Of a DNA stretch of 64,000 nucleotides, positions 15,781 through 36,527 are shown piece after piece (position 1 is the stretch's first letter; every line of letters starts with the position of its first letter). This DNA is from Escherichia phage vB_EcoM_G37-3. Location of the stretch: the sequence record MK327941.1. The stretch is one strand, 5' to 3'. The notes beneath the pieces were generated by a model. The model did no database searches. It was given only the letters and a program-made list of their open reading frames with translations, and was not told where the DNA came from. Both the position numbers and the translations under genes were made by a program.

Positions 15781-16180
15781 TTAAGCCAGTTGAGTGAGTT
15801 TATAAATTGTTTTAAAGCATAGAGCTTTGATATCGTCTAAAACACTCTGTAACGAGCTATCAACATCATTATAAATCTCACTAGCCATTTGCGTTAACTC
15901 TTGCAAATAGGCAATTTCGCTAATCTCCTTGCGGACGACCAACTTTGGCTGATAACGACCAGTGATCCCAATATTGGTTTCAGTGAAATTATCAACCAAT
16001 TCTTGCATTTCAAGATAGAACTCTTCTAGAGCCTTATGTTTTGCATAAGATCCAGGACCAGTTACCCCAAAATGCGCAGAATGCATATAAGTAACACTCA
16101 TCAGACATTCACCGATAAAGCGGTCAACTTTATTAGCCTTTCCCTCTTCGGACGTCTTTAGAAAATCACTGAATTTCATG
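15781..16180 (-). CDS. Hypothetical protein (about 133 aa)
   Basis: Probable ATG at MKFSDFLKTSEEGK with RBS GGAGAA; track start 16278. Confidence 0.45.
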
Positions 16181-16468
16181 TTCTCGATTCTCCATATTAT
16201 GCAACAGAACAAATTGTTGTGCGGCATATCCCCCCATAATAAAACACTGCCTAGAATCCATACATTTACTACGAGCATACATCTTCATAATATGGGCATG
16301 AAATTTCTGGCTGGTTTCAATGGAAGGAGATATTTTGTTTACATATACTATCATTGCGCCGTCGAAATAATCAGTAAAGTCACCAGTTGGATCATATTGA
16401 TCAGCACTGACACTTCCGACCGCAGTCAAGCATATTGCCGCTGTTAGAGTTTTACGAATAAATGACAT
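16166..16468 (-). CDS. Hypothetical secreted protein with N-terminal signal peptide
   Basis: MSFIRKTLTAAICLTAVGSVSA signal-like N-terminus; RBS GGGGGA; TATAAATA late-promoter motif upstream. Confidence 0.45.
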   Translation of the reverse strand: MSFIRKTLTAAICLTAVGSVSADQYDPTGDFTDYFDGAMIVYVNKISPSIETSQKFHAHIMKMYARSKCMDSRQCFIMGGYAAQQFVLLHNMENREHEIQ

Positions 16469-16536: not shown

Positions 16537-17133
16537 TTATTTGGTAGTACCGTCAATAAAATGTTTACGGCACACAGAAACATATTTATCCTCTGCGCCG
16601 ACTTCTATTTGAGCACCATCGCGAATAACATTACCCTCTTTATCTACACGAAGGACCATTGTTGCTTTCTTGCCACAATGACAAATACCTTTCATTTCGA
16701 CCAGTTTATCAGCAAGTGCCATCAATGCCGCAGATCCTTCAAATAGATTGCCCTGAAAGTCAGTGCGAAGGCCATAGCACAGTACAGGGATATTTGCATC
16801 ATCGACAAGCGCACACAAGCCTAAAACATGCTCTTTAGTCATAAATTGGGCTTCGTCTACAAAAACTGCATCTGGACGCCATCGATCCGGTCTACGTTTA
16901 CCTAACGATTCACGATAAACCAAATCGAAAAGATCATCCGATTTAGTGAAGGTGATCGCTGGAGCACTTAGACCAATTCGGGAAACAACTTCACTTTCTG
17001 AATATCGATTATCAATCGCTGGCTTAAGAATTAATACTCGCATATCACGTTCGGTATAGTTATAAGCACTTTGTAACAGAGAAGTTGATTTGCCAGCGTT
17101 CATAGATGCATAGTAGAAATATAATTGCGCCAT
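16537..17133 (-). CDS. tk: Thymidine kinase
   Basis: ASMNAGKST P-loop, VDEAQF, C-terminal CHCGKKA zinc motif; collinear with T4 Tk. Confidence 0.9.
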   Translation of the reverse strand: MAQLYFYYASMNAGKSTSLLQSAYNYTERDMRVLILKPAIDNRYSESEVVSRIGLSAPAITFTKSDDLFDLVYRESLGKRRPDRWRPDAVFVDEAQFMTKEHVLGLCALVDDANIPVLCYGLRTDFQGNLFEGSAALMALADKLVEMKGICHCGKKATMVLRVDKEGNVIRDGAQIEVGAEDKYVSVCRKHFIDGTTK

Positions 17134-17661: not shown

Positions 17662-17864
17662 TTACATTTAGGGCAATGCGGTTCTTTAATATAATACCCG
17701 TCTGTCTTTGGAACACTAACAGGAGCGGTTTTTATATTGTATTCAGTGAAACAACGAAAACAAGTTACGTTTTCTACAGACTGACGTTTCACCCAATCAC
17801 CGGAATATAGATCATTTTTATTTGTCATATTCAACCACCACAATGTTAATGTCTGGAGTAGCAA
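17634..17864 (-). CDS. Hypothetical zinc-ribbon protein
   Basis: CFRC...CPKCKC motif; start probably at internal MTNKND. Confidence 0.4.
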   Translation of the reverse strand: MLLQTLTLWWLNMTNKNDLYSGDWVKRQSVENVTCFRCFTEYNIKTAPVSVPKTDGYYIKEPHCPKCKCRLYWSHL

Positions 17865-18273
17865 TATTAATGATCTCTTCTACACATTCCCACTCAAGGC
17901 CACCGATACCGCAACCGATTTTAGGAATATAGAAAGGCTGTATAGCACCTTCAAAAACATCATTGATAGTCTCAAATCCTTTCAGGATAGCACCATATTC
18001 AGCATTTGGACCCGGTCGGAATTGGGTATAGAGATTCACCCCGCACCAGTTATAACCATTAACTTGATGCGTCCAGACACTAAACCCACCCAGCTTTTCT
18101 ACCTTACCGCGAGAAGTTTGCTTGTCAATCTCTAACGCTTGCGGGAACTCTTTCGCGATCTTTGCAGCAATACCAGCGCCCATAGTATGAAAACAATTAC
18201 AACCATGAATTAAATGACCGTTTCCTTGTTTAAACAGGGCGATGAGATCGCCCTTTACAGTATCAATAATCAT
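17818..18273 (-). CDS. Macro-domain-like protein (putative ADP-ribose binding/hydrolase)
   Basis: GDLIALF...GHLIHGCNCFHTMGAGIAAKI resembles the macro-domain N-x-x-N / GGG-V-A-x-AI signature; assignment by eye only. Confidence 0.45.
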   Translation of the reverse strand: MIIDTVKGDLIALFKQGNGHLIHGCNCFHTMGAGIAAKIAKEFPQALEIDKQTSRGKVEKLGGFSVWTHQVNGYNWCGVNLYTQFRPGPNAEYGAILKGFETINDVFEGAIQPFYIPKIGCGIGGLEWECVEEIINIATPDINIVVVEYDK

Positions 18274-18288
18274 AATATAAACCTCTCA

Positions 18289-18648
18289 TTAGTCACGGGA
18301 AGACAACCCAGCCATAAAACGGCTTAACAGTGTGTCGCGATAAGCAAAGCATAATTGCTTATCAGGGGCAGTATCACAAAGGTTGCGTTTTGTTTTAGCA
18401 AAGCTGGCAATACTCAGATCCCACGCTCGATTTTTTCGTTTTTCGTCTCGACCTTGTTTGTATGCTTCATCAAGTTCGAGCGCGATAAAATCACTACACA
18501 TGTTATCATCATCACAGAAAGTTTTAATGATCTTTTTGTTGATCTCAAATCCTTTGTATTCGAACTTTGGATAAGGGCGCTCATTACTAGCAAGCGCACC
18601 AGCAGAGAACATCATAGCAATCATAGCAATTATTGTCAACTTTTTCAT
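18289..18648 (-). CDS. Hypothetical periplasmic/secreted protein
   Basis: N-terminal MKKLTIIAMIAMMFSAGALA signal peptide. Confidence 0.45.
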   Translation of the reverse strand: MKKLTIIAMIAMMFSAGALASNERPYPKFEYKGFEINKKIIKTFCDDDNMCSDFIALELDEAYKQGRDEKRKNRAWDLSIASFAKTKRNLCDTAPDKQLCFAYRDTLLSRFMAGLSSRD

Positions 18649-18655
18649 ATATTCC

Positions 18656-19246
18656 TCAATAGCGTTTAGTCTTAAGAATGCCTTTACTCTTTAGATGGTT
18701 AGCCTTTTTTAGTACGTCATCAGCATAACCTAATCCGGCTTTATAGTTCCATCCAGCATTGTAAGAAGCTAGCGCGAGTCGGATATTACCGTTTCGAACA
18801 TCCAGCCAGTATGCTAACTCATCCATCGCGTAGAATGCAGAAACCTCGCGATTCATGATAAAGTTGATAGTCTGGCGATCACTCATTTTAACACCGCGCT
18901 TTGCATTTTTCGCTTTCACCGTTTTAAGGTAATTTTGAAATAATCCATAAGCATGATGATTTTTCTTTGGTGCTAAGTTTGCACCCGCGCTTGATTCTTG
19001 CCATGCGATACCCGCCAGGATGTGACCTAAACCCTTTCCGTTATAGCGAATATTCGGATGGTACTTTTTCAACTTACCGCTTTTCTCAAATTGCTCGCCG
19101 TATTGATAGGCGAAATGTAAATTATCTAGTTGGTGTGGTGTAAAGTTGTCTATCGGCGCTTTTTTGATCGGTGCGCTAGTCGATGCGTGTGTAGCACCAA
19201 CGGCTAGTGACAGACTCAATACTATCGCTTTTAGAACTTTTAACAT
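18656..19246 (-). CDS. Putative lytic transglycosylase-like protein with signal peptide
   Basis: Signal peptide then AWQESSAG...YGLFQ...SYNAGW motifs resembling the SLT/lysozyme-like fold. Confidence 0.55.
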   Translation of the reverse strand: MLKVLKAIVLSLSLAVGATHASTSAPIKKAPIDNFTPHQLDNLHFAYQYGEQFEKSGKLKKYHPNIRYNGKGLGHILAGIAWQESSAGANLAPKKNHHAYGLFQNYLKTVKAKNAKRGVKMSDRQTINFIMNREVSAFYAMDELAYWLDVRNGNIRLALASYNAGWNYKAGLGYADDVLKKANHLKSKGILKTKRY

Positions 19247-19281
19247 TAATTTCTCCTGTTTGGCTTAACTTTCTGATTCCA

Positions 19282-19308
19282 TAATATAGCCCTATCACCA
19301 GAAAGTCA
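19282..19308 (-). promoter_or_regulatory. Putative early sigma70 promoter for regB
   Basis: Minus strand TTGACT, 15-nt spacer, TATATT, RBS AGGAGA before ATG. Confidence 0.4.
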
Positions 19309-19332
19309 AGCATTATTTTTAACCAATTTCCA

Positions 19333-19755
19333 TTATTGGTCTACCTTCAAAACAACCGCCGACATTTTACCCGCCAGTCGTTTTGGATTCTCTATAATCA
19401 TTCGGCAGCATAGACCGTGATATGGCTTACCCTCTTCGATTAGATCTACTGTCATCCCGATCCACATGTTACCGTCAGTAATTTCTAATCGATTCGGTCG
19501 GTCTTCCATTTTCAGGAAGTCGAAGATCTCCGGCAAACGAGTTTCTATCTTATTGAATAGTTCCATTGTCTTATGTTCATCGATATGACGATCGGTTAGA
19601 CGGTCGATCATATGCGGACTAAAGCGAATGAAAATATACTCACCATAACCATCATTCAAGCACTTTTCTTTGATCTTCGCATTGGTTTTGCGCATTTCGG
19701 TTTCGAAGAATCTACGCAGCTTACTACGGCGAACATGTACGTTAATTGTTTCCAT
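19333..19755 (-). CDS. regB: Endoribonuclease RegB
   Basis: METINVHVRRSKLRRFFETEMRK...RLEITDGNMW...LCCRMIIENPKRLAGK matches T4 RegB; track ORF extends upstream to 19827. Confidence 0.8.
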   Translation of the reverse strand: METINVHVRRSKLRRFFETEMRKTNAKIKEKCLNDGYGEYIFIRFSPHMIDRLTDRHIDEHKTMELFNKIETRLPEIFDFLKMEDRPNRLEITDGNMWIGMTVDLIEEGKPYHGLCCRMIIENPKRLAGKMSAVVLKVDQ

Positions 19756-19759
19756 TTTA

Positions 19760-20095
19760 TTATCCTTTCTTAAACAAATTGCGAATCCAGTATACAAACG
19801 GGATTTCTTTAAACTTGAACTTGTCAATAGTTAATTCTTTAGTAGCAAGATGAATACCATAAGCATCATGTGTCACGATATGCCATTTTCTATAGTCCAA
19901 ATGTGAACAACCGTCTGGATCTAGGTTAATAAGAGTTTCTCGCTCACTAGGATTATTTTTCCACAATTTTGTAATAGGATCGCACATAATTCGACCTAGC
20001 GTACCATGAATAATCTCACAACGGTAAAGTTTTCCAGCAGTGAGATAGGCGCACCCGTCATAGTCTGTATAAACAAACACTTCTTTAACACTCAT
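19760..20095 (-). CDS. Hypothetical protein, GC(S/A)HLD small-protein family
   Basis: Probable start MSVKEVFVYTDYDGCAYL with RBS and PeSL-type promoter; motif DPDGCSHLD. Confidence 0.45.
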   Translation of the reverse strand: MSVKEVFVYTDYDGCAYLTAGKLYRCEIIHGTLGRIMCDPITKLWKNNPSERETLINLDPDGCSHLDYRKWHIVTHDAYGIHLATKELTIDKFKFKEIPFVYWIRNLFKKG

Positions 20096-20123
20096 TTTAA
20101 TACTCCTTTGTTTCGATGGGGGT

Positions 20124-20152
20124 ATATTACTACCCCCGTTTTGTTGTGTCAA
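20124..20152 (-). promoter_or_regulatory. Early promoter with palindrome around -10 (PeSL-like)
   Basis: Minus strand TTGACA, 17-nt spacer, TAATAT within GGGGGTAG...ACCCCC inverted repeat. Confidence 0.55.
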
Positions 20153-23493: not shown

Positions 23494-23685
23494 TTAGATT
23501 CCGGCGATCCTGCATATAGTTCTTGTATTAGCACCAATCAGGATCGCATTAACGACAACCATTCCCCAATCAACCCACTGATTATTATAAATGCTAAACC
23601 CGTTTGCAAGACCAAATACAAGCATTCCGGTACACATACTCAGAGCAATAATCAACATCACGGTAAAACCAAATGCAAATCTCAT
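23494..23685 (-). CDS. Small membrane protein (2 TM)
   Basis: Hydrophobic 63-aa ORF immediately upstream of endolysin. Confidence 0.4.
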   Translation of the reverse strand: MRFAFGFTVMLIIALSMCTGMLVFGLANGFSIYNNQWVDWGMVVVNAILIGANTRTICRIAGI

Positions 23686-27271: not shown

Positions 27272-27490
27272 TTATTTATATCGCTTTCTCTCGCGACGTT
27301 TTTGATCTTCTTCCTTGATAGAGTTAAACGCATCAAAAAGACACATGACACTAATAATAAACATAACCGTATTTTCTACGATATCCCACGGCTTCGCATC
27401 GGTACAGATTCCCCAAACTGTAAGAAATGCAAATAGTGCAGAAGAGATCACAAGCATGATACTTGCTAAGATATAAAAAGTCATTTTCAT
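27272..27490 (-). CDS. Small membrane protein
   Basis: Hydrophobic ORF with basic C-terminus KEEDQKRRERKRYK. Confidence 0.4.
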   Translation of the reverse strand: MKMTFYILASIMLVISSALFAFLTVWGICTDAKPWDIVENTVMFIISVMCLFDAFNSIKEEDQKRRERKRYK

Positions 27491-27993: not shown

Positions 27994-28236
27994 TCATAGA
28001 TCACAGAGCCATCTTAAAGCACCACATAAAGCGATCAAAAGACTAGGTATAAACGAGACTAAAACAAGACTACAAAAATCATCTAAGGTAACGCCGGAAT
28101 AGCTACCTACTGTAACAACACCGATCATCAGACACAGAAAGAAAACAAATGCAATCAGAAACAAAGTATTGCTAAACAGTTTAGTGATCATTAGACACCC
28201 CACGACGATCAATTTCAAAAACTTTTTTACCATCAA
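27994..28236 (-). CDS. Small membrane protein
   Basis: Hydrophobic 80-aa ORF. Confidence 0.4.
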   Translation of the reverse strand: MMVKKFLKLIVVGCLMITKLFSNTLFLIAFVFFLCLMIGVVTVGSYSGVTLDDFCSLVLVSFIPSLLIALCGALRWLCDL

Positions 28237-34727: not shown

Positions 34728-36527
34728 ATGCTAATGTTTAATAACTCCGTTAAATGGTTTACCGGAATTGTAGAAAACAGGGAAGACCCATTAATGCTGG
34801 GTCGTGTTCAGGTTAGGATTCATGGTATACATCCCTCGCTATCCGCACACGGTGACATTCAAGGTCTTCCAACCGAAGATCTATTATGGATTACGCCAGT
34901 ACAAGATATTACAAGCGCGGCGATCTCCGGTATAGGTCAAAGCCCTACTGGTATTGTTGAAGGTTCAATGGTATTTGGTTTGGCTTTAGATGAACGTTAT
35001 TTAAACTGCGTTATTCTTGGTACTATTGCCGGACAATATACAGAGAAACCACTCACTACAGAGGGTTTTTGTGACCCTTCTGGTGCATATCCTCGTTATA
35101 TTGGTAATGATGTTAATATTCTTGCTCGTGGCGGTATTAACCCAGAAACCGGACAAACAACAAAACCTGATAGTGTCTATATTCGAGATGAAAACACTGG
35201 AGTTGCAGTAAATCCAGACGACGAGCCATTAGACCAAATTCCGGTTGATGATAATCCTGATTTTACAATAGAAAAAATGCTGCGGGGCGATGAGGGATAT
35301 CGCGAGAAATGGTATCTTGATTCAGAAGGATATCCGACAATAGGCATCGGGCATTTGATCATTTATAAGAAAACCAGTGATCTTGGTATTATCAATAATG
35401 AACTTTCTAAGCTGGTAGGGCGTGAAGTTACAAACGGAAGACTTACCGCCGAAGAAGTTAGTAAAGTATTTGCCGACGATATAGAAAAGACTCGTCGTGA
35501 TATGCGCAAACATCCACGAATTGCACCTGTCTATAATAAATGTAATGCCTCTCGTCGCATGGCATTAGAAAATATGGCGTTTCAAATGGGTGTTGGTGGA
35601 TTGGGTAAATTTAAGAATAGTCTTGCTGCGATGTTAGCGGAAGAATGGAAACAAGCCTATGATGGATTACGTCAATCGGTATGGGCTAACCAAACTCCAG
35701 GACGCTCCAGCCGTGTTTCTAAAATTATTTTAACTGGTAACTTAGAATCATATGGCGTAATTGCTCCAAAGAAAGAGGAATCAATTTCTGATGATCCGCG
35801 AGAACGTTTGAGAAATGCCCGTATTGCTGCCTATAAGACGCAGAGAGCAGAAGAAGACCCAGAAGCACCGTTTACCCCACAAGACACACGAATCATGTTT
35901 AAAGAGCCTAAGAGTTCGTATTCTGCAAGGTATCCATATAACCATGTGTACGAGTCAGAGAGCGGTCATATTATCGAGATTGATGATACTCCTTCTCATG
36001 AGCGATATCATCGTAAACATCCTTCTGGTACATTTGAAGAAACCAGACCGGACGGAACGAGGGTAGAAAAGATTGAAGGCGATGATTATCTGATCGTTAA
36101 ACAAGGCCGGAAAGTAAACGTCAAGGGTAATTTGCAAGTTGTTGTTGAAGGTGACGCGCAAGTTTATTATATGGGTAATGTGATGCAAACCGTTGATGGT
36201 AACGTCACTGAATTTATTCGTGGCAATGTTAATCAGACCGTTGAAGGTACTGCTAACATGCATGTTGTTGGTGATGTTATCGCACAGCTTGACGCTAATT
36301 TGACGGCTAACGTCAAGGGTAATGCTGAATTAATGATCGAGGGTAACACTACCGAAACAATTAAAGGTAACTATGATTTAACCGTTGAGGGTAATTTTAA
36401 TATGACAGTCAATGGCACTAAATCAGATCAGGTTAATGGTGACTGGTCCCGTAATTGTGGTGCAAGCGTTAAAGATATTGCATCTGGTACAGTTAAAATT
36501 GATGGTAGCCGTATTGATCTTGGGTGA
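34728..36527 (+). CDS. 5: Baseplate hub + tail lysozyme gp5 (cell-puncturing device)
   Basis: OB-fold N-terminus, lysozyme domain GYPTIGIGHLI..., C-terminal beta-helix VxGxxxxx repeats. Confidence 0.95.
   Translation: MLMFNNSVKWFTGIVENREDPLMLGRVQVRIHGIHPSLSAHGDIQGLPTEDLLWITPVQDITSAAISGIGQSPTGIVEGSMVFGLALDERYLNCVILGTIAGQYTEKPLTTEGFCDPSGAYPRYIGNDVNILARGGINPETGQTTKPDSVYIRDENTGVAVNPDDEPLDQIPVDDNPDFTIEKMLRGDEGYREKWYLDSEGYPTIGIGHLIIYKKTSDLGIINNELSKLVGREVTNGRLTAEEVSKVFADDIEKTRRDMRKHPRIAPVYNKCNASRRMALENMAFQMGVGGLGKFKNSLAAMLAEEWKQAYDGLRQSVWANQTPGRSSRVSKIILTGNLESYGVIAPKKEESISDDPRERLRNARIAAYKTQRAEEDPEAPFTPQDTRIMFKEPKSSYSARYPYNHVYESESGHIIEIDDTPSHERYHRKHPSGTFEETRPDGTRVEKIEGDDYLIVKQGRKVNVKGNLQVVVEGDAQVYYMGNVMQTVDGNVTEFIRGNVNQTVEGTANMHVVGDVIAQLDANLTANVKGNAELMIEGNTTETIKGNYDLTVEGNFNMTVNGTKSDQVNGDWSRNCGASVKDIASGTVKIDGSRIDLG

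What the first reader, a model, noticed from the sequence alone, without database searches (positions are those of the whole stretch)
18289..19246. Two signal-peptide proteins including a lytic-transglycosylase-like enzyme upstream of regB
ORF 18656-19246 has a cleavable signal peptide plus SLT-like motifs (ESSAG, GLFQ, SYNAGW). ORF 18289-18648 also has a signal peptide. An exported muralytic enzyme expressed early could remodel peptidoglycan, for example for superinfection exclusion or injection-associated functions, separately from the endolysin.
Basis: inference. Interest (0 to 1): 0.35.

Follow-up and report, generated by a model that had tools for sequence, protein, structure and literature searches.

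The report
Exported transglycosylase and partner (vs.1, vs)
These are the RB49-type copies of the phage T4 genes vs.1 and vs: vs.1 is a cell-wall-cutting enzyme sent outside the cytoplasm and already noted in the literature, and the only real surprise is that its neighbour, labelled a cytoplasmic "valyl-tRNA synthetase modifier", also looks like an exported protein.

Summary
Both ORFs are real genes on the minus strand of a Krischvirus (RB49-like) genome, lying downstream of regB in the direction of transcription.

- **ORF 18289-18648** is the T4 vs ortholog ("valyl-tRNA synthetase modifier"). It is an exported-looking four-helix protein with four invariant cysteines.
- **Prior knowledge.** The SLT similarity of vs.1, including RB49, was published in 2003 and 2006, so the main finding is already known. 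The function has never been tested.
- **T4 data.** Both genes give early RNA and MS-detected protein. Both are non-essential. Transposon insertions in both are depleted relative to neighbouring genes, and vs insertions strongly so in minimal medium.
- **Not the endolysin.** A gene e homolog lies at 35268-35753.
- **What may be new.** Every Vs ortholog examined carries a signal peptide, and one has a canonical lipobox. vs is usually translationally coupled to vs.1. This conflicts with a cytoplasmic ValRS-binding role.

The superinfection-exclusion idea remains untested.

The parts
18656..19246 (-). vs.1 ortholog, 196 aa: exported single-domain family-1 lytic transglycosylase (SLT/GH23 fold)
19184..19246 (-). 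Predicted Sec signal peptide of Vs.1 (aa 1-21, MLKVLKAIVLSLSLAVGATHA|STS)
   Evidence: n/h/c-region heuristic. pLDDT below 50 for residues 14-30. All orthologs have an equivalent but sequence-divergent N-terminus. The cleavage site is inferred, not scored by SignalP.
18995..18997 (-). Codon of the predicted catalytic glutamate E84 (motif I, WQ-E-S)
   Evidence: Invariant in 24/24 sequences. Aligns with the ...AWNES... motif of EtgA.
18746..19021 (-). SLT core (aa 76-167) holding motifs I-III (ESSAG, GLFQN, SYNAGW); motif IV Tyr174 lies at 18725-18727
   Evidence: Pfam envelope. Conserved columns. Coordinates.
18289..18648 (-). vs ortholog, 119 aa ('valyl-tRNA synthetase modifier' family, phrog_1256 / PF26829): predicted exported four-helix protein with four invariant Cys (C45, C51, C91, C100)
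   Evidence: phrog_1256 E 2e-33. PF26829 on all homologs. Alignments. AF2 shows four helices over residues 34-115 with block pLDDT 79-92.
18589..18648 (-). Predicted Sec signal peptide of Vs (aa 1-20, MKKLTIIAMIAMMFSAGALA|SNE)
   Evidence: Heuristic. Present in 43/43 distinct orthologs and in 12 of 13 distant representatives (the 13th, P0073, is a truncated 85-aa ORF that starts inside the mature region). One of these has a canonical lipobox, LSGC.
18649..18658 (-). vs.1/vs junction: the vs Shine-Dalgarno GAGG (18654-18657) overlaps the vs.1 stop codon (18656-18658), with a 7-nt gap between the genes, which suggests translational coupling
   Evidence: In 44 of the 53 vs-containing loci the vs start lies within -8 to +7 nt of the vs.1 stop.
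19281..19309 (-). Sigma-70-type promoter-like site (TTGACT-17-TATTAT) in the 86-nt regB/vs.1 spacer
   Evidence: Consensus scan, 10/12 matches. Annotated as a promoter in phage GEC-3S. Not in the RB49 early-promoter list of Nolan 2006.
19333..19755 (-). regB (endoribonuclease), the upstream gene of the conserved regB-vs.1-vs triad
   Evidence: Pfam REGB_T4 E 2e-48. GEC-3S annotation. ATG start confirmed.

Best explanation
The two ORFs are the Krischvirus orthologs of T4 vs.1 and vs.

Shown:
- Vs.1 has the fold and every conserved catalytic motif of a family-1 (Slt70, MltE, EtgA-type) lytic transglycosylase.
- Both proteins have N-termini with the anatomy of cleavable Sec signal peptides.
- The two genes are juxtaposed so that the ribosome-binding site of vs overlaps the stop codon of vs.1.
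- In T4 both genes give early RNA and detectable protein, and both are dispensable in rich medium.

Inferred mechanism:
1. Host RNA polymerase transcribes regB-vs.1-vs early in infection.
2. Both products are exported by Sec and cleaved, after about A21 in Vs.1 and A20 in Vs.
3. In the periplasm the roughly 19.8-kDa basic mature Vs.1 uses E84 as its single acid/base. It cleaves MurNAc-GlcNAc bonds and leaves 1,6-anhydro-MurNAc ends.
4. This is limited, non-lytic remodelling of the sacculus, like the host's own transglycosylases. It is not the holin-gated lysis carried out by the separate gene e lysozyme.
5. Mature Vs (about 11.6 kDa, four helices, two CxnC pairs probably forming disulfides) acts in the same compartment. 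Most likely it is a partner or modulator of Vs.1.

My best guess for the benefit is conditioning of the cell wall that raises phage yield or lysis efficiency, most visibly in slow-growing cells in minimal medium.

Likelihoods: about 0.85 for an exported SLT-fold enzyme, about 0.8 for Vs being exported, about 0.35 for a Vs/Vs.1 functional pair, and at most 0.35 for the specific physiological role.
For: Identity and synteny.

Motifs: E84, G101, F103, Q104, N105, S161, Y162, G165 and Y174 are invariant.

Export:
- The heuristic passes for only 6/168 ORFs, including the positive control rI.
- Signal-like N-termini occur in all orthologs.
- Lipobox variants occur in both families.

Coupling: of the 53 loci in which vs was detected, 44 have the vs start within -8 to +7 nt of the vs.1 stop. 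The ribosome-binding site overlaps the stop codon here.

Expression in T4: early RNA, with both proteins seen by MS.

Fitness in T4:
- Both genes are non-essential.
- In liquid LB, mean insertion counts are 26.6 for vs and 22.6 for vs.1, against 179-652 for regB, tk.4 and vs.3.
- In LB versus M9, vs has log2FC -2.19 (q = 0) and vs.1 has -0.87 (p 0.0055, q 0.16).

Not the endolysin: an e homolog lies at 35268-35753.
Against: - No enzymatic, localisation or interaction data exist for any member of either family.
- SignalP could not be run. The Vs.1 h-region is rich in Ala, Ser and Gly, so membrane tethering is not excluded.
- Vs is annotated from 1970s biochemistry and genetics as a factor that binds cytoplasmic valyl-tRNA synthetase (cited). 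That is the opposite compartment.
- The four Cys of Vs could bind a metal instead of forming disulfides.
- vs.1 occurs without a detectable vs in Aeromonas T4-like phages, Ackermannviridae and Felix-O1-like phages. In RB43-like phages the two genes are 0.5-1.2 kb apart.
- Gene order in T4-like phages is conserved in general, so adjacency is weak evidence.
- The low transposon counts for vs.1 could partly reflect polarity on vs.
Confidence: 0.6

Rival explanations
1. Vs.1 is a lysis enzyme: a signal-peptide or SAR-type second endolysin. It would be exported ahead of time and activated when the holin depolarises the membrane, contributing to end-of-cycle lysis rather than to early wall remodelling.
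For: - Nolan 2006 suggested 'some role in cell lysis'.
- In IMG/VR loci L067 and L069 the Vs.1-type gene directly precedes an Rz-like i-spanin/o-spanin pair.
- In Felix-O1-like phages it is annotated 'putative lysin' and lies near spanin genes.
- T4-related Campylobacter Fletchervirus phages use a signal-peptide SLT endolysin (PMC7692668).
- The h-region is Ala/Ser/Gly-rich.
Against: - The window has its own T4 e-type lysozyme.
- T4 vs.1 RNA is early and the gene is dispensable.
- The uncharged stretch is only 12-13 residues and has a small-residue -3/-1 site. That is typical of cleaved signal peptides, not of SAR anchors.
- The gene sits in an early cluster next to regB, not in a lysis cassette.
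Confidence: 0.15
2. The annotation is right and the resemblance is misleading. Vs is the cytoplasmic tau factor that binds host valyl-tRNA synthetase. Its hydrophobic N-terminus is not used for export, or only part of the pool is exported, and Vs has no functional link with Vs.1. The two genes are merely neighbours in a conserved early cluster.
For: - Classical work is cited for binding and modification of ValRS (Muller and Marchin 1975 and 1977, cited).
- The T4 vs knock-out has a nutrient-dependent phenotype, which fits a translation-related role.
- vs.1 exists without vs in several lineages.
Against: - A signal-peptide-like N-terminus is kept in 43/43 distinct orthologs and in 12 of 13 distant representatives despite 20-30% identity (the 13th, P0073, is a truncated ORF lacking the N-terminus). 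One ortholog has a canonical lipobox, which only makes sense for an exported protein.
- There are four invariant Cys.
- Full-length N-terminally tagged Vs was insoluble in the E. coli cytoplasm.
- I could not verify how the vs mutation was assigned to this ORF, because the primary papers are not held.
Confidence: 0.3
3. Vs.1 contributes to superinfection exclusion or to resistance to lysis from without. It would alter the sacculus so that the tail lysozyme of later-arriving phages is ineffective.
For: - It is an early-expressed periplasmic muralytic enzyme.
- T4 already places Imm, Sp and rI in the envelope early in infection (my own knowledge; Spackle paper PMC7650644, listed).
- Depletion of insertion mutants in liquid competition, where superinfection is frequent, is compatible with this idea.
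Against: - There is no direct evidence.
- Known exclusion functions are attributed to imm and sp.
- sp insertions show no depletion in the same data set (183.8 versus 210.7), so that assay does not obviously report on exclusion.
- Cutting glycan strands would be expected to weaken the wall against lysis from without, not strengthen it (inference).
Confidence: 0.08

Closest known systems
Phage T4 Vs.1 (P13311, Y06E_BPT4) and RB49 vs.1
   Same: Orthologs. The position between regB and vs is the same. Identity is 48% to T4 and 98% to RB49. The signal-peptide-like N-terminus and the SLT motifs are the same. The SLT match was published for six T4-like genomes, including RB49.
   Different: Nothing substantive. 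Here an 86-nt spacer with a promoter-like site separates the gene from regB, against 7 nt in T4. No member has a tested function.
Specialised single-domain lytic transglycosylases of secretion systems (EtgA of the EPEC type III system; family-1 SLT)
   Different: No envelope-spanning machine or partner rod protein is known for Vs.1. Similarity is marginal at the sequence level. The subfamily is essentially phage-only: only 4 hits among bacterial genome contigs, and 2 of those are phage-sized contigs.
Signal-peptide SLT endolysin of Campylobacter Fletchervirus phages (F352 Lys) and other SP or SAR endolysins
   Same: A phage-encoded SLT domain behind an N-terminal Sec signal. Vs.1-type genes sit next to spanin genes in some non-T4 lineages.
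   Different: In T4-type phages lysis is carried out by the cytoplasmic gene e lysozyme with a holin. Vs.1 is transcribed early, is dispensable and lies outside any lysis cassette.
Phage T4 Vs, 'valyl-tRNA synthetase modifier' (P13310; phrog_1256 / PF26829)
   Same: The window's 119-aa protein is its ortholog (phrog E 2e-33; same position). The T4 protein also starts with a signal-like MTKILVLCIGLISFSASASA|D and has the four Cys.
   Different: Only 26% identity to T4. The annotated cytoplasmic function does not fit the conserved export signals. This was not resolved here.
Phage T4 Spackle (gp61.3), a periplasmic inhibitor of the gp5 tail lysozyme
   Same: This is an analogy only. Spackle is a small, early, Sec-exported helical phage protein that acts on a lysozyme-fold enzyme in the periplasm (PMC7650644, listed; details from my own knowledge).

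Membership tests
Family-1 lytic transglycosylase / Pfam SLT (PF01464), GH23 fold | Profile score above the curated cut-off | tested here: met
   25.7 bits against 21.3, E 9e-6, residues 76-167
Family-1 lytic transglycosylase / Pfam SLT (PF01464), GH23 fold | Single catalytic Glu in an E-S motif (motif I) | tested here: met
   E84-S85; E84 is invariant in 24/24 sequences and aligns with the ...WNES... motif of EtgA
Family-1 lytic transglycosylase / Pfam SLT (PF01464), GH23 fold | Motif II G-[LM]-x-Q, motif III [AS]-Y-N-A-G and a downstream conserved Tyr | tested here: met
   G101, F103 and Q104 are invariant. S161, Y162 and G165 are invariant, and N163 and A164 at least 90% conserved. Y174 is invariant. 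Calling Y174 'motif IV' is my inference.
Family-1 lytic transglycosylase / Pfam SLT (PF01464), GH23 fold | Lysozyme-like alpha-helical fold | tested here: met
Family-1 lytic transglycosylase / Pfam SLT (PF01464), GH23 fold | Non-hydrolytic cleavage giving 1,6-anhydro-MurNAc products | not testable with these tools
   Needs purified protein, sacculi and LC-MS
Sec-exported protein with a cleavable signal peptide (both ORFs) | Basic n-region, 7-15 residue hydrophobic h-region, small residues at -3 and -1 | tested here: met
   Heuristic only, with rI recovered as a positive control. Conserved in all orthologs. SignalP was not available.
Sec-exported protein with a cleavable signal peptide (both ORFs) | Actual export and cleavage | not testable with these tools
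   Needs PhoA or Bla fusions, or N-terminal mapping
SAR (signal-anchor-release) endolysin | N-terminal weakly hydrophobic transmembrane domain long enough to span the membrane, with no cleavage site | tested here: not met
   The uncharged stretch is only 12-13 residues and is followed by VGA|T or THA|S sites
Phage endolysin (the enzyme responsible for lysis) | It is the phage's lysis muralytic enzyme: late or lysis-cassette context, and needed for lysis | tested here: not met
   A separate e homolog is present in the window. T4 vs.1 gives early RNA and is non-essential, with 46/52 TA sites hit.
T4 Vs family (phrog_1256 / PF26829) | Profile match and conserved position after vs.1 | tested here: met
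   E 1.8e-33 over the full length. PF26829 on the homologs. Synteny.
T4 Vs family (phrog_1256 / PF26829) | Binds and modifies host valyl-tRNA synthetase | not testable with these tools
   Known only from citations. It conflicts with the predicted export.
Periplasmic lysozyme/transglycosylase inhibitors (Spackle, PliG, Ivy, MliC), considered for Vs | Fold or sequence similarity to a known inhibitor | tested here: not met

The most novel reading that the evidence does not exclude
Vs is not, or not only, a cytoplasmic valyl-tRNA synthetase modifier. It would be a Sec-exported, disulfide-stabilised periplasmic four-helix protein made by coupled translation with the Vs.1 lytic transglycosylase, and the two would form a dedicated phage module that remodels the cell wall. 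The minimal-medium requirement for T4 vs would then reflect envelope physiology rather than translation. The 50-year-old functional label on this ORF would be wrong or incomplete.
Probability: 0.3. Interest if true: 0.6.

Novelty: already known. Interest (0 to 1): 0.33.

Why it matters
Its SLT similarity has been in the literature since 2003 and 2006, and some GenBank records already call it a lytic transglycosylase. On that level it matters little.

Two points are still worth a specialist's attention.
- **Untested function.** Vs.1 occurs in more than 2,000 sequenced phage genomes across Straboviridae, Ackermannviridae and Felix-O1-like phages. It has never been assayed, although T4 transposon data now hint at a fitness role.
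- **A conflicting annotation.** The neighbouring gene vs carries universally conserved export signals. These contradict its textbook annotation.

A few simple experiments would settle it: localisation, epistasis of the vs and vs.1 deletions in minimal medium, and ValRS binding by mature Vs. They would either correct a long-standing annotation or reveal an unusual dual-compartment protein.

Tried and rejected
- **Single-sequence search of PDB sequences with Vs.1** gave only chance hits. The profile search gave a marginal EtgA match.
- **NCBIfam** has no model for either protein. The local Pfam copy lacks PF26829, so Vs had no Pfam hit.
- **The Vs model** matched only generic helical bundles, so the Spackle-like or inhibitor-fold idea is not supported.
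- **The search for related loci with Vs alignments** failed twice: once because the alignment was too divergent, once because there was no tblastn confirmation. I therefore could not ask whether vs ever occurs without vs.1.
No complex prediction was possible, and model coordinates are not exposed, so Cys-Cys distances were not measured.
- **Papers not held:** Miller 2003 and Muller and Marchin 1975.
- **The SignalP table of Nolan 2006** covers only novel ORFs, not vs or vs.1. Its RB49 early-promoter list has no site in front of vs.1.
- **RegB-site idea.** GGAG in the vs.1 Shine-Dalgarno sequence is not conserved, for example not in T4. I rejected it as a family feature.
- **Bacterial origin or relatives of the Vs.1 subfamily.** There were only 4 hits in 185,579 species genomes, and two of those are phage-sized contigs.

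Full report
**What the window is**

The region is 99-99.8% identical to Krischvirus (RB49-like) coliphages such as vB_EcoM_G5211, kaaroe, RB49, GEC-3S and Phi1. All genes in this stretch are on the minus strand. The gene order is tk (16537-17133), three small ORFs, a macro-domain gene (17818-18273), ORF 18289-18648, ORF 18656-19246 and regB (19333-19755). This is the T4 order tk, tk.1-3, tk.4, vs, vs.1, regB. The two ORFs of the finding are therefore the orthologs of T4 vs and vs.1. In the direction of transcription they lie downstream of regB, not upstream.

**Checking the observation**

Both ORFs are at the stated coordinates, and each has an ATG start with a good ribosome-binding site. The three quoted motifs are present: ESSAG at 18983-18997, GLFQN at 18932-18946 and SYNAGW at 18749-18766. 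They are not chance strings. In an alignment of 24 homologs from Straboviridae, Ackermannviridae, Ounavirinae and metagenomes, E84, G101, F103, Q104, N105, S161, Y162, G165 and Y174 are invariant. Pfam SLT scores 25.7 bits, above the curated 21.3.

SignalP was unavailable, so I used a simple n/h/c-region test.
- Vs.1 reads MLKVLK / AIVLSLSLAVGA / THA|STS.
- Vs reads MKK / LTIIAMIAMMFSAGALA|SNE.
- Only 6 of 168 ATG-ORFs of at least 60 aa in the window pass. These include the known periplasmic rI ortholog. The other three are short ORFs (63-79 aa); two have 22-residue uncharged segments and look like membrane proteins.
- The N-termini keep this anatomy in every ortholog while their sequences drift.
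- In the AlphaFold models these segments have low confidence, in contrast to well-predicted bodies.

**What Vs.1 is**

Foldseek gives the same families with weak E-values. At the sequence-profile level the nearest solved protein is EtgA, the small Sec-exported transglycosylase of the EPEC type III system. There the ES, G-x-x-Q and AYNAG motifs are aligned (E 0.011). Vs.1 therefore meets every testable criterion of a family-1 lytic transglycosylase. Only the chemistry, anhydro-MurNAc products, cannot be tested here.

Vs.1 is not the lysis enzyme of this phage.
- A T4 gene e homolog lies at 35268-35753.
- In T4, vs.1 RNA is early and the protein is detected by mass spectrometry (PMC9697503 supplements).
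- T4 vs.1 tolerates transposon insertions at 46 of 52 TA sites (HIDEN-SEQ).

The subfamily is very common in phages: tblastn finds it in 2,033 phage records. It is essentially absent from bacterial genomes, with 4 hits of which two are phage-sized contigs.

**What Vs is**

The 119-aa protein matches phrog_1256, 'valyl tRNA synthetase modifier', with E 2e-33. All homologs carry PF26829. The family is tiny, with 20 representatives at 50% identity among 1.84 billion proteins. It is also fast-evolving, at 26% identity to T4 Vs.

Four cysteines are invariant: C45, C51, C91 and C100. They form two CxnC pairs at helix-loop-helix junctions. This is compatible with two disulfide staples, although a metal site is not excluded.

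All 43 distinct orthologs from IMG/VR loci have a signal-peptide-like N-terminus, and so do 12 of 13 distant representatives (the 13th, P0073, is a truncated 85-aa ORF that starts inside the mature region). P0074 has a canonical lipobox (LSGC), and P0079 has LLAC. T4 Vs itself begins MTKILVLCIGLISFSASASA|D. These are hallmarks of an exported protein.

**Linkage of the two genes**

I examined 85 loci containing a vs.1-type gene: 79 from IMG/VR plus GEC-3S, T4 and four other annotated phages. vs was detected in 53 of them. In 44 of those 53, covering most Straboviridae lineages sampled, the vs start lies within -8 to +7 nt of the vs.1 stop. In this window the vs GAGG overlaps the vs.1 stop codon. 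The pair persists in Acinetobacter phages where no regB was detected.

The linkage is not universal.
- In RB43/KP15-like phages, non-exported genes separate the two by 0.5-1.2 kb.
- Aeromonas T4-likes, Ceceduovirus, Ackermannviridae and Felix-O1-like phages have vs.1 without a detectable vs.

Outside the T4 group the Vs.1-type gene is sometimes in a lysis context. It lies directly upstream of Rz-like spanins in L067 and L069 and near spanins in a Felix-O1-like phage.

**Functional data from T4**

These come from the HIDEN-SEQ preprint (10.1101/2025.11.20.689424).
- vs is the strongest conditionally required gene in M9-glucose: log2FC -2.19, q = 0. A clean deletion impairs plaque formation in M9.
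- vs.1 moves in the same direction: log2FC -0.87, p 0.0055, q 0.16.
- In liquid LB both genes have mean insertion counts of 23-27, against 179-652 for regB, tk.4 and vs.3.

This is what one would expect if both genes contribute to one fitness-relevant process. Polarity of vs.1 insertions on vs, and site-specific insertion bias, are alternatives.

Separately, full-length N-terminally His-tagged T4 Vs went into inclusion bodies (PMC8076793). That is unsurprising for a precursor with a blocked signal peptide and unformed disulfides.

**Expression signals here**

A TTGACT-17-TATTAT site lies at 19309-19281 in the 86-nt regB/vs.1 spacer. It is annotated as a promoter in GEC-3S but is absent from the RB49 early-promoter list of Nolan 2006. 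In T4 the spacer is only 7 nt, so vs.1 is read through from regB. Either way, early transcription by host polymerase is the likely mode.

**Best explanation**

Both proteins are made early, exported by Sec and cleaved. Vs.1 then acts as a soluble periplasmic lytic transglycosylase, with E84 as catalytic acid/base, doing limited non-lytic remodelling of the sacculus. Vs acts in the same compartment, probably with or on Vs.1.
- Shown: identity, motifs, fold, signal-like N-termini, gene coupling and the T4 expression and fitness data.
- Inferred: export, cleavage sites, chemistry, partnership and physiological role.

All are laid out with their tests in the structured fields.

**Comparison with what is known, and novelty**

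The SLT similarity of vs.1 was reported for T4 and confirmed for six T4-like genomes including RB49. The authors commented that it suggests 'some role in cell lysis' (PMC1524935). Some GenBank records already name it 'lytic transglycosylase domain-containing protein'. The core of the finding is therefore already known, though untested experimentally.

What I did not find in any paper I could search or read is the observation that Vs, the supposed cytoplasmic ValRS modifier, carries conserved export signals and is coupled to an exported muralytic enzyme. I could not read the 1970s primary papers or the 2003 T4 genome review. I therefore cannot say how firmly the vs mutation was tied to this ORF, or whether the signal peptide was noted there. 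From my own memory, unchecked, the purified tau factor was about 10 kDa. That is closer to the processed 11.0-kDa T4 Vs than to the 13.1-kDa precursor.

**Verdict**

The feature is ordinary and already described as a gene family. It comes with one genuinely odd and testable side issue, the exported 'tRNA synthetase modifier'. Interest is 0.33.

Noticed in passing
window 17818-18273 (-): Macro-domain protein (Pfam Macro E 1e-6; phrog_335), the ortholog of T4 tk.4. A 2025 preprint names T4 Tk.4 AdfM, an anti-DarTG2 factor.
   Followed up: partly
window 18611-18639 (-): The strongest sigma-70-like match in the 5-kb scan (TTGACA-17-TATGAT with an upstream TG, 11/12) lies inside the first codons of vs. 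It could be an internal promoter for tk.4 and the genes downstream, or it could be chance.
   Followed up: no
window 19253-19257 (-): The Shine-Dalgarno sequence of vs.1 is AGGAG and so contains GGAG, the RegB cleavage motif, immediately after the regB gene. The motif is not conserved in front of vs.1 in T4 or in most other loci.
   Followed up: partly
window 16166-16468 (-): The 100-aa ORF at the position of rI in GEC-3S also passes the signal-peptide heuristic (MSFIRK-TLTAAICLTAVGSVSA). It served as a positive control.
   Followed up: partly
L067:3001-4183 and L069:2929-4227: In two large IMG/VR phage contigs a Vs.1-type (phrog_600) gene directly precedes and overlaps an Rz-like i-spanin/o-spanin pair (phrog_739, phrog_812). 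This is a lysis-cassette context not seen in T4-type phages.
   Followed up: partly
P0074, P0079 (Vs family); L064:3010-3507, L042:2947-3501 (Vs.1 family): Some orthologs of both proteins have lipobox-like N-termini (LSGC and LLAC; FSAC and VSSC). This suggests lipoprotein variants of both partners.
   Followed up: no
window 19333-19827 (-): The mechanical ORF call for regB starts at a TTG (19827) and is over-extended. The ATG at 19755 gives the 140-aa RegB annotated in GEC-3S. The extension overlaps the 3' end of ORF 19760-20152.
   Followed up: yes
L086, L087 (genome contigs): Two 'bacterial' assemblies, a metagenome bin and Flagellimonas marina, contain contigs of 167 and 178 kb that encode Vs.1-type proteins. 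These are probably T4-like phage genomes inside bacterial assemblies.
   Followed up: no
window 23494-23685, 27272-27490, 27994-28233 (-): Three small ORFs (63-79 aa) with strongly hydrophobic N-terminal segments were flagged by the same heuristic. Two have 22-residue uncharged stretches; all three are likely small membrane proteins of the early region.
   Followed up: no
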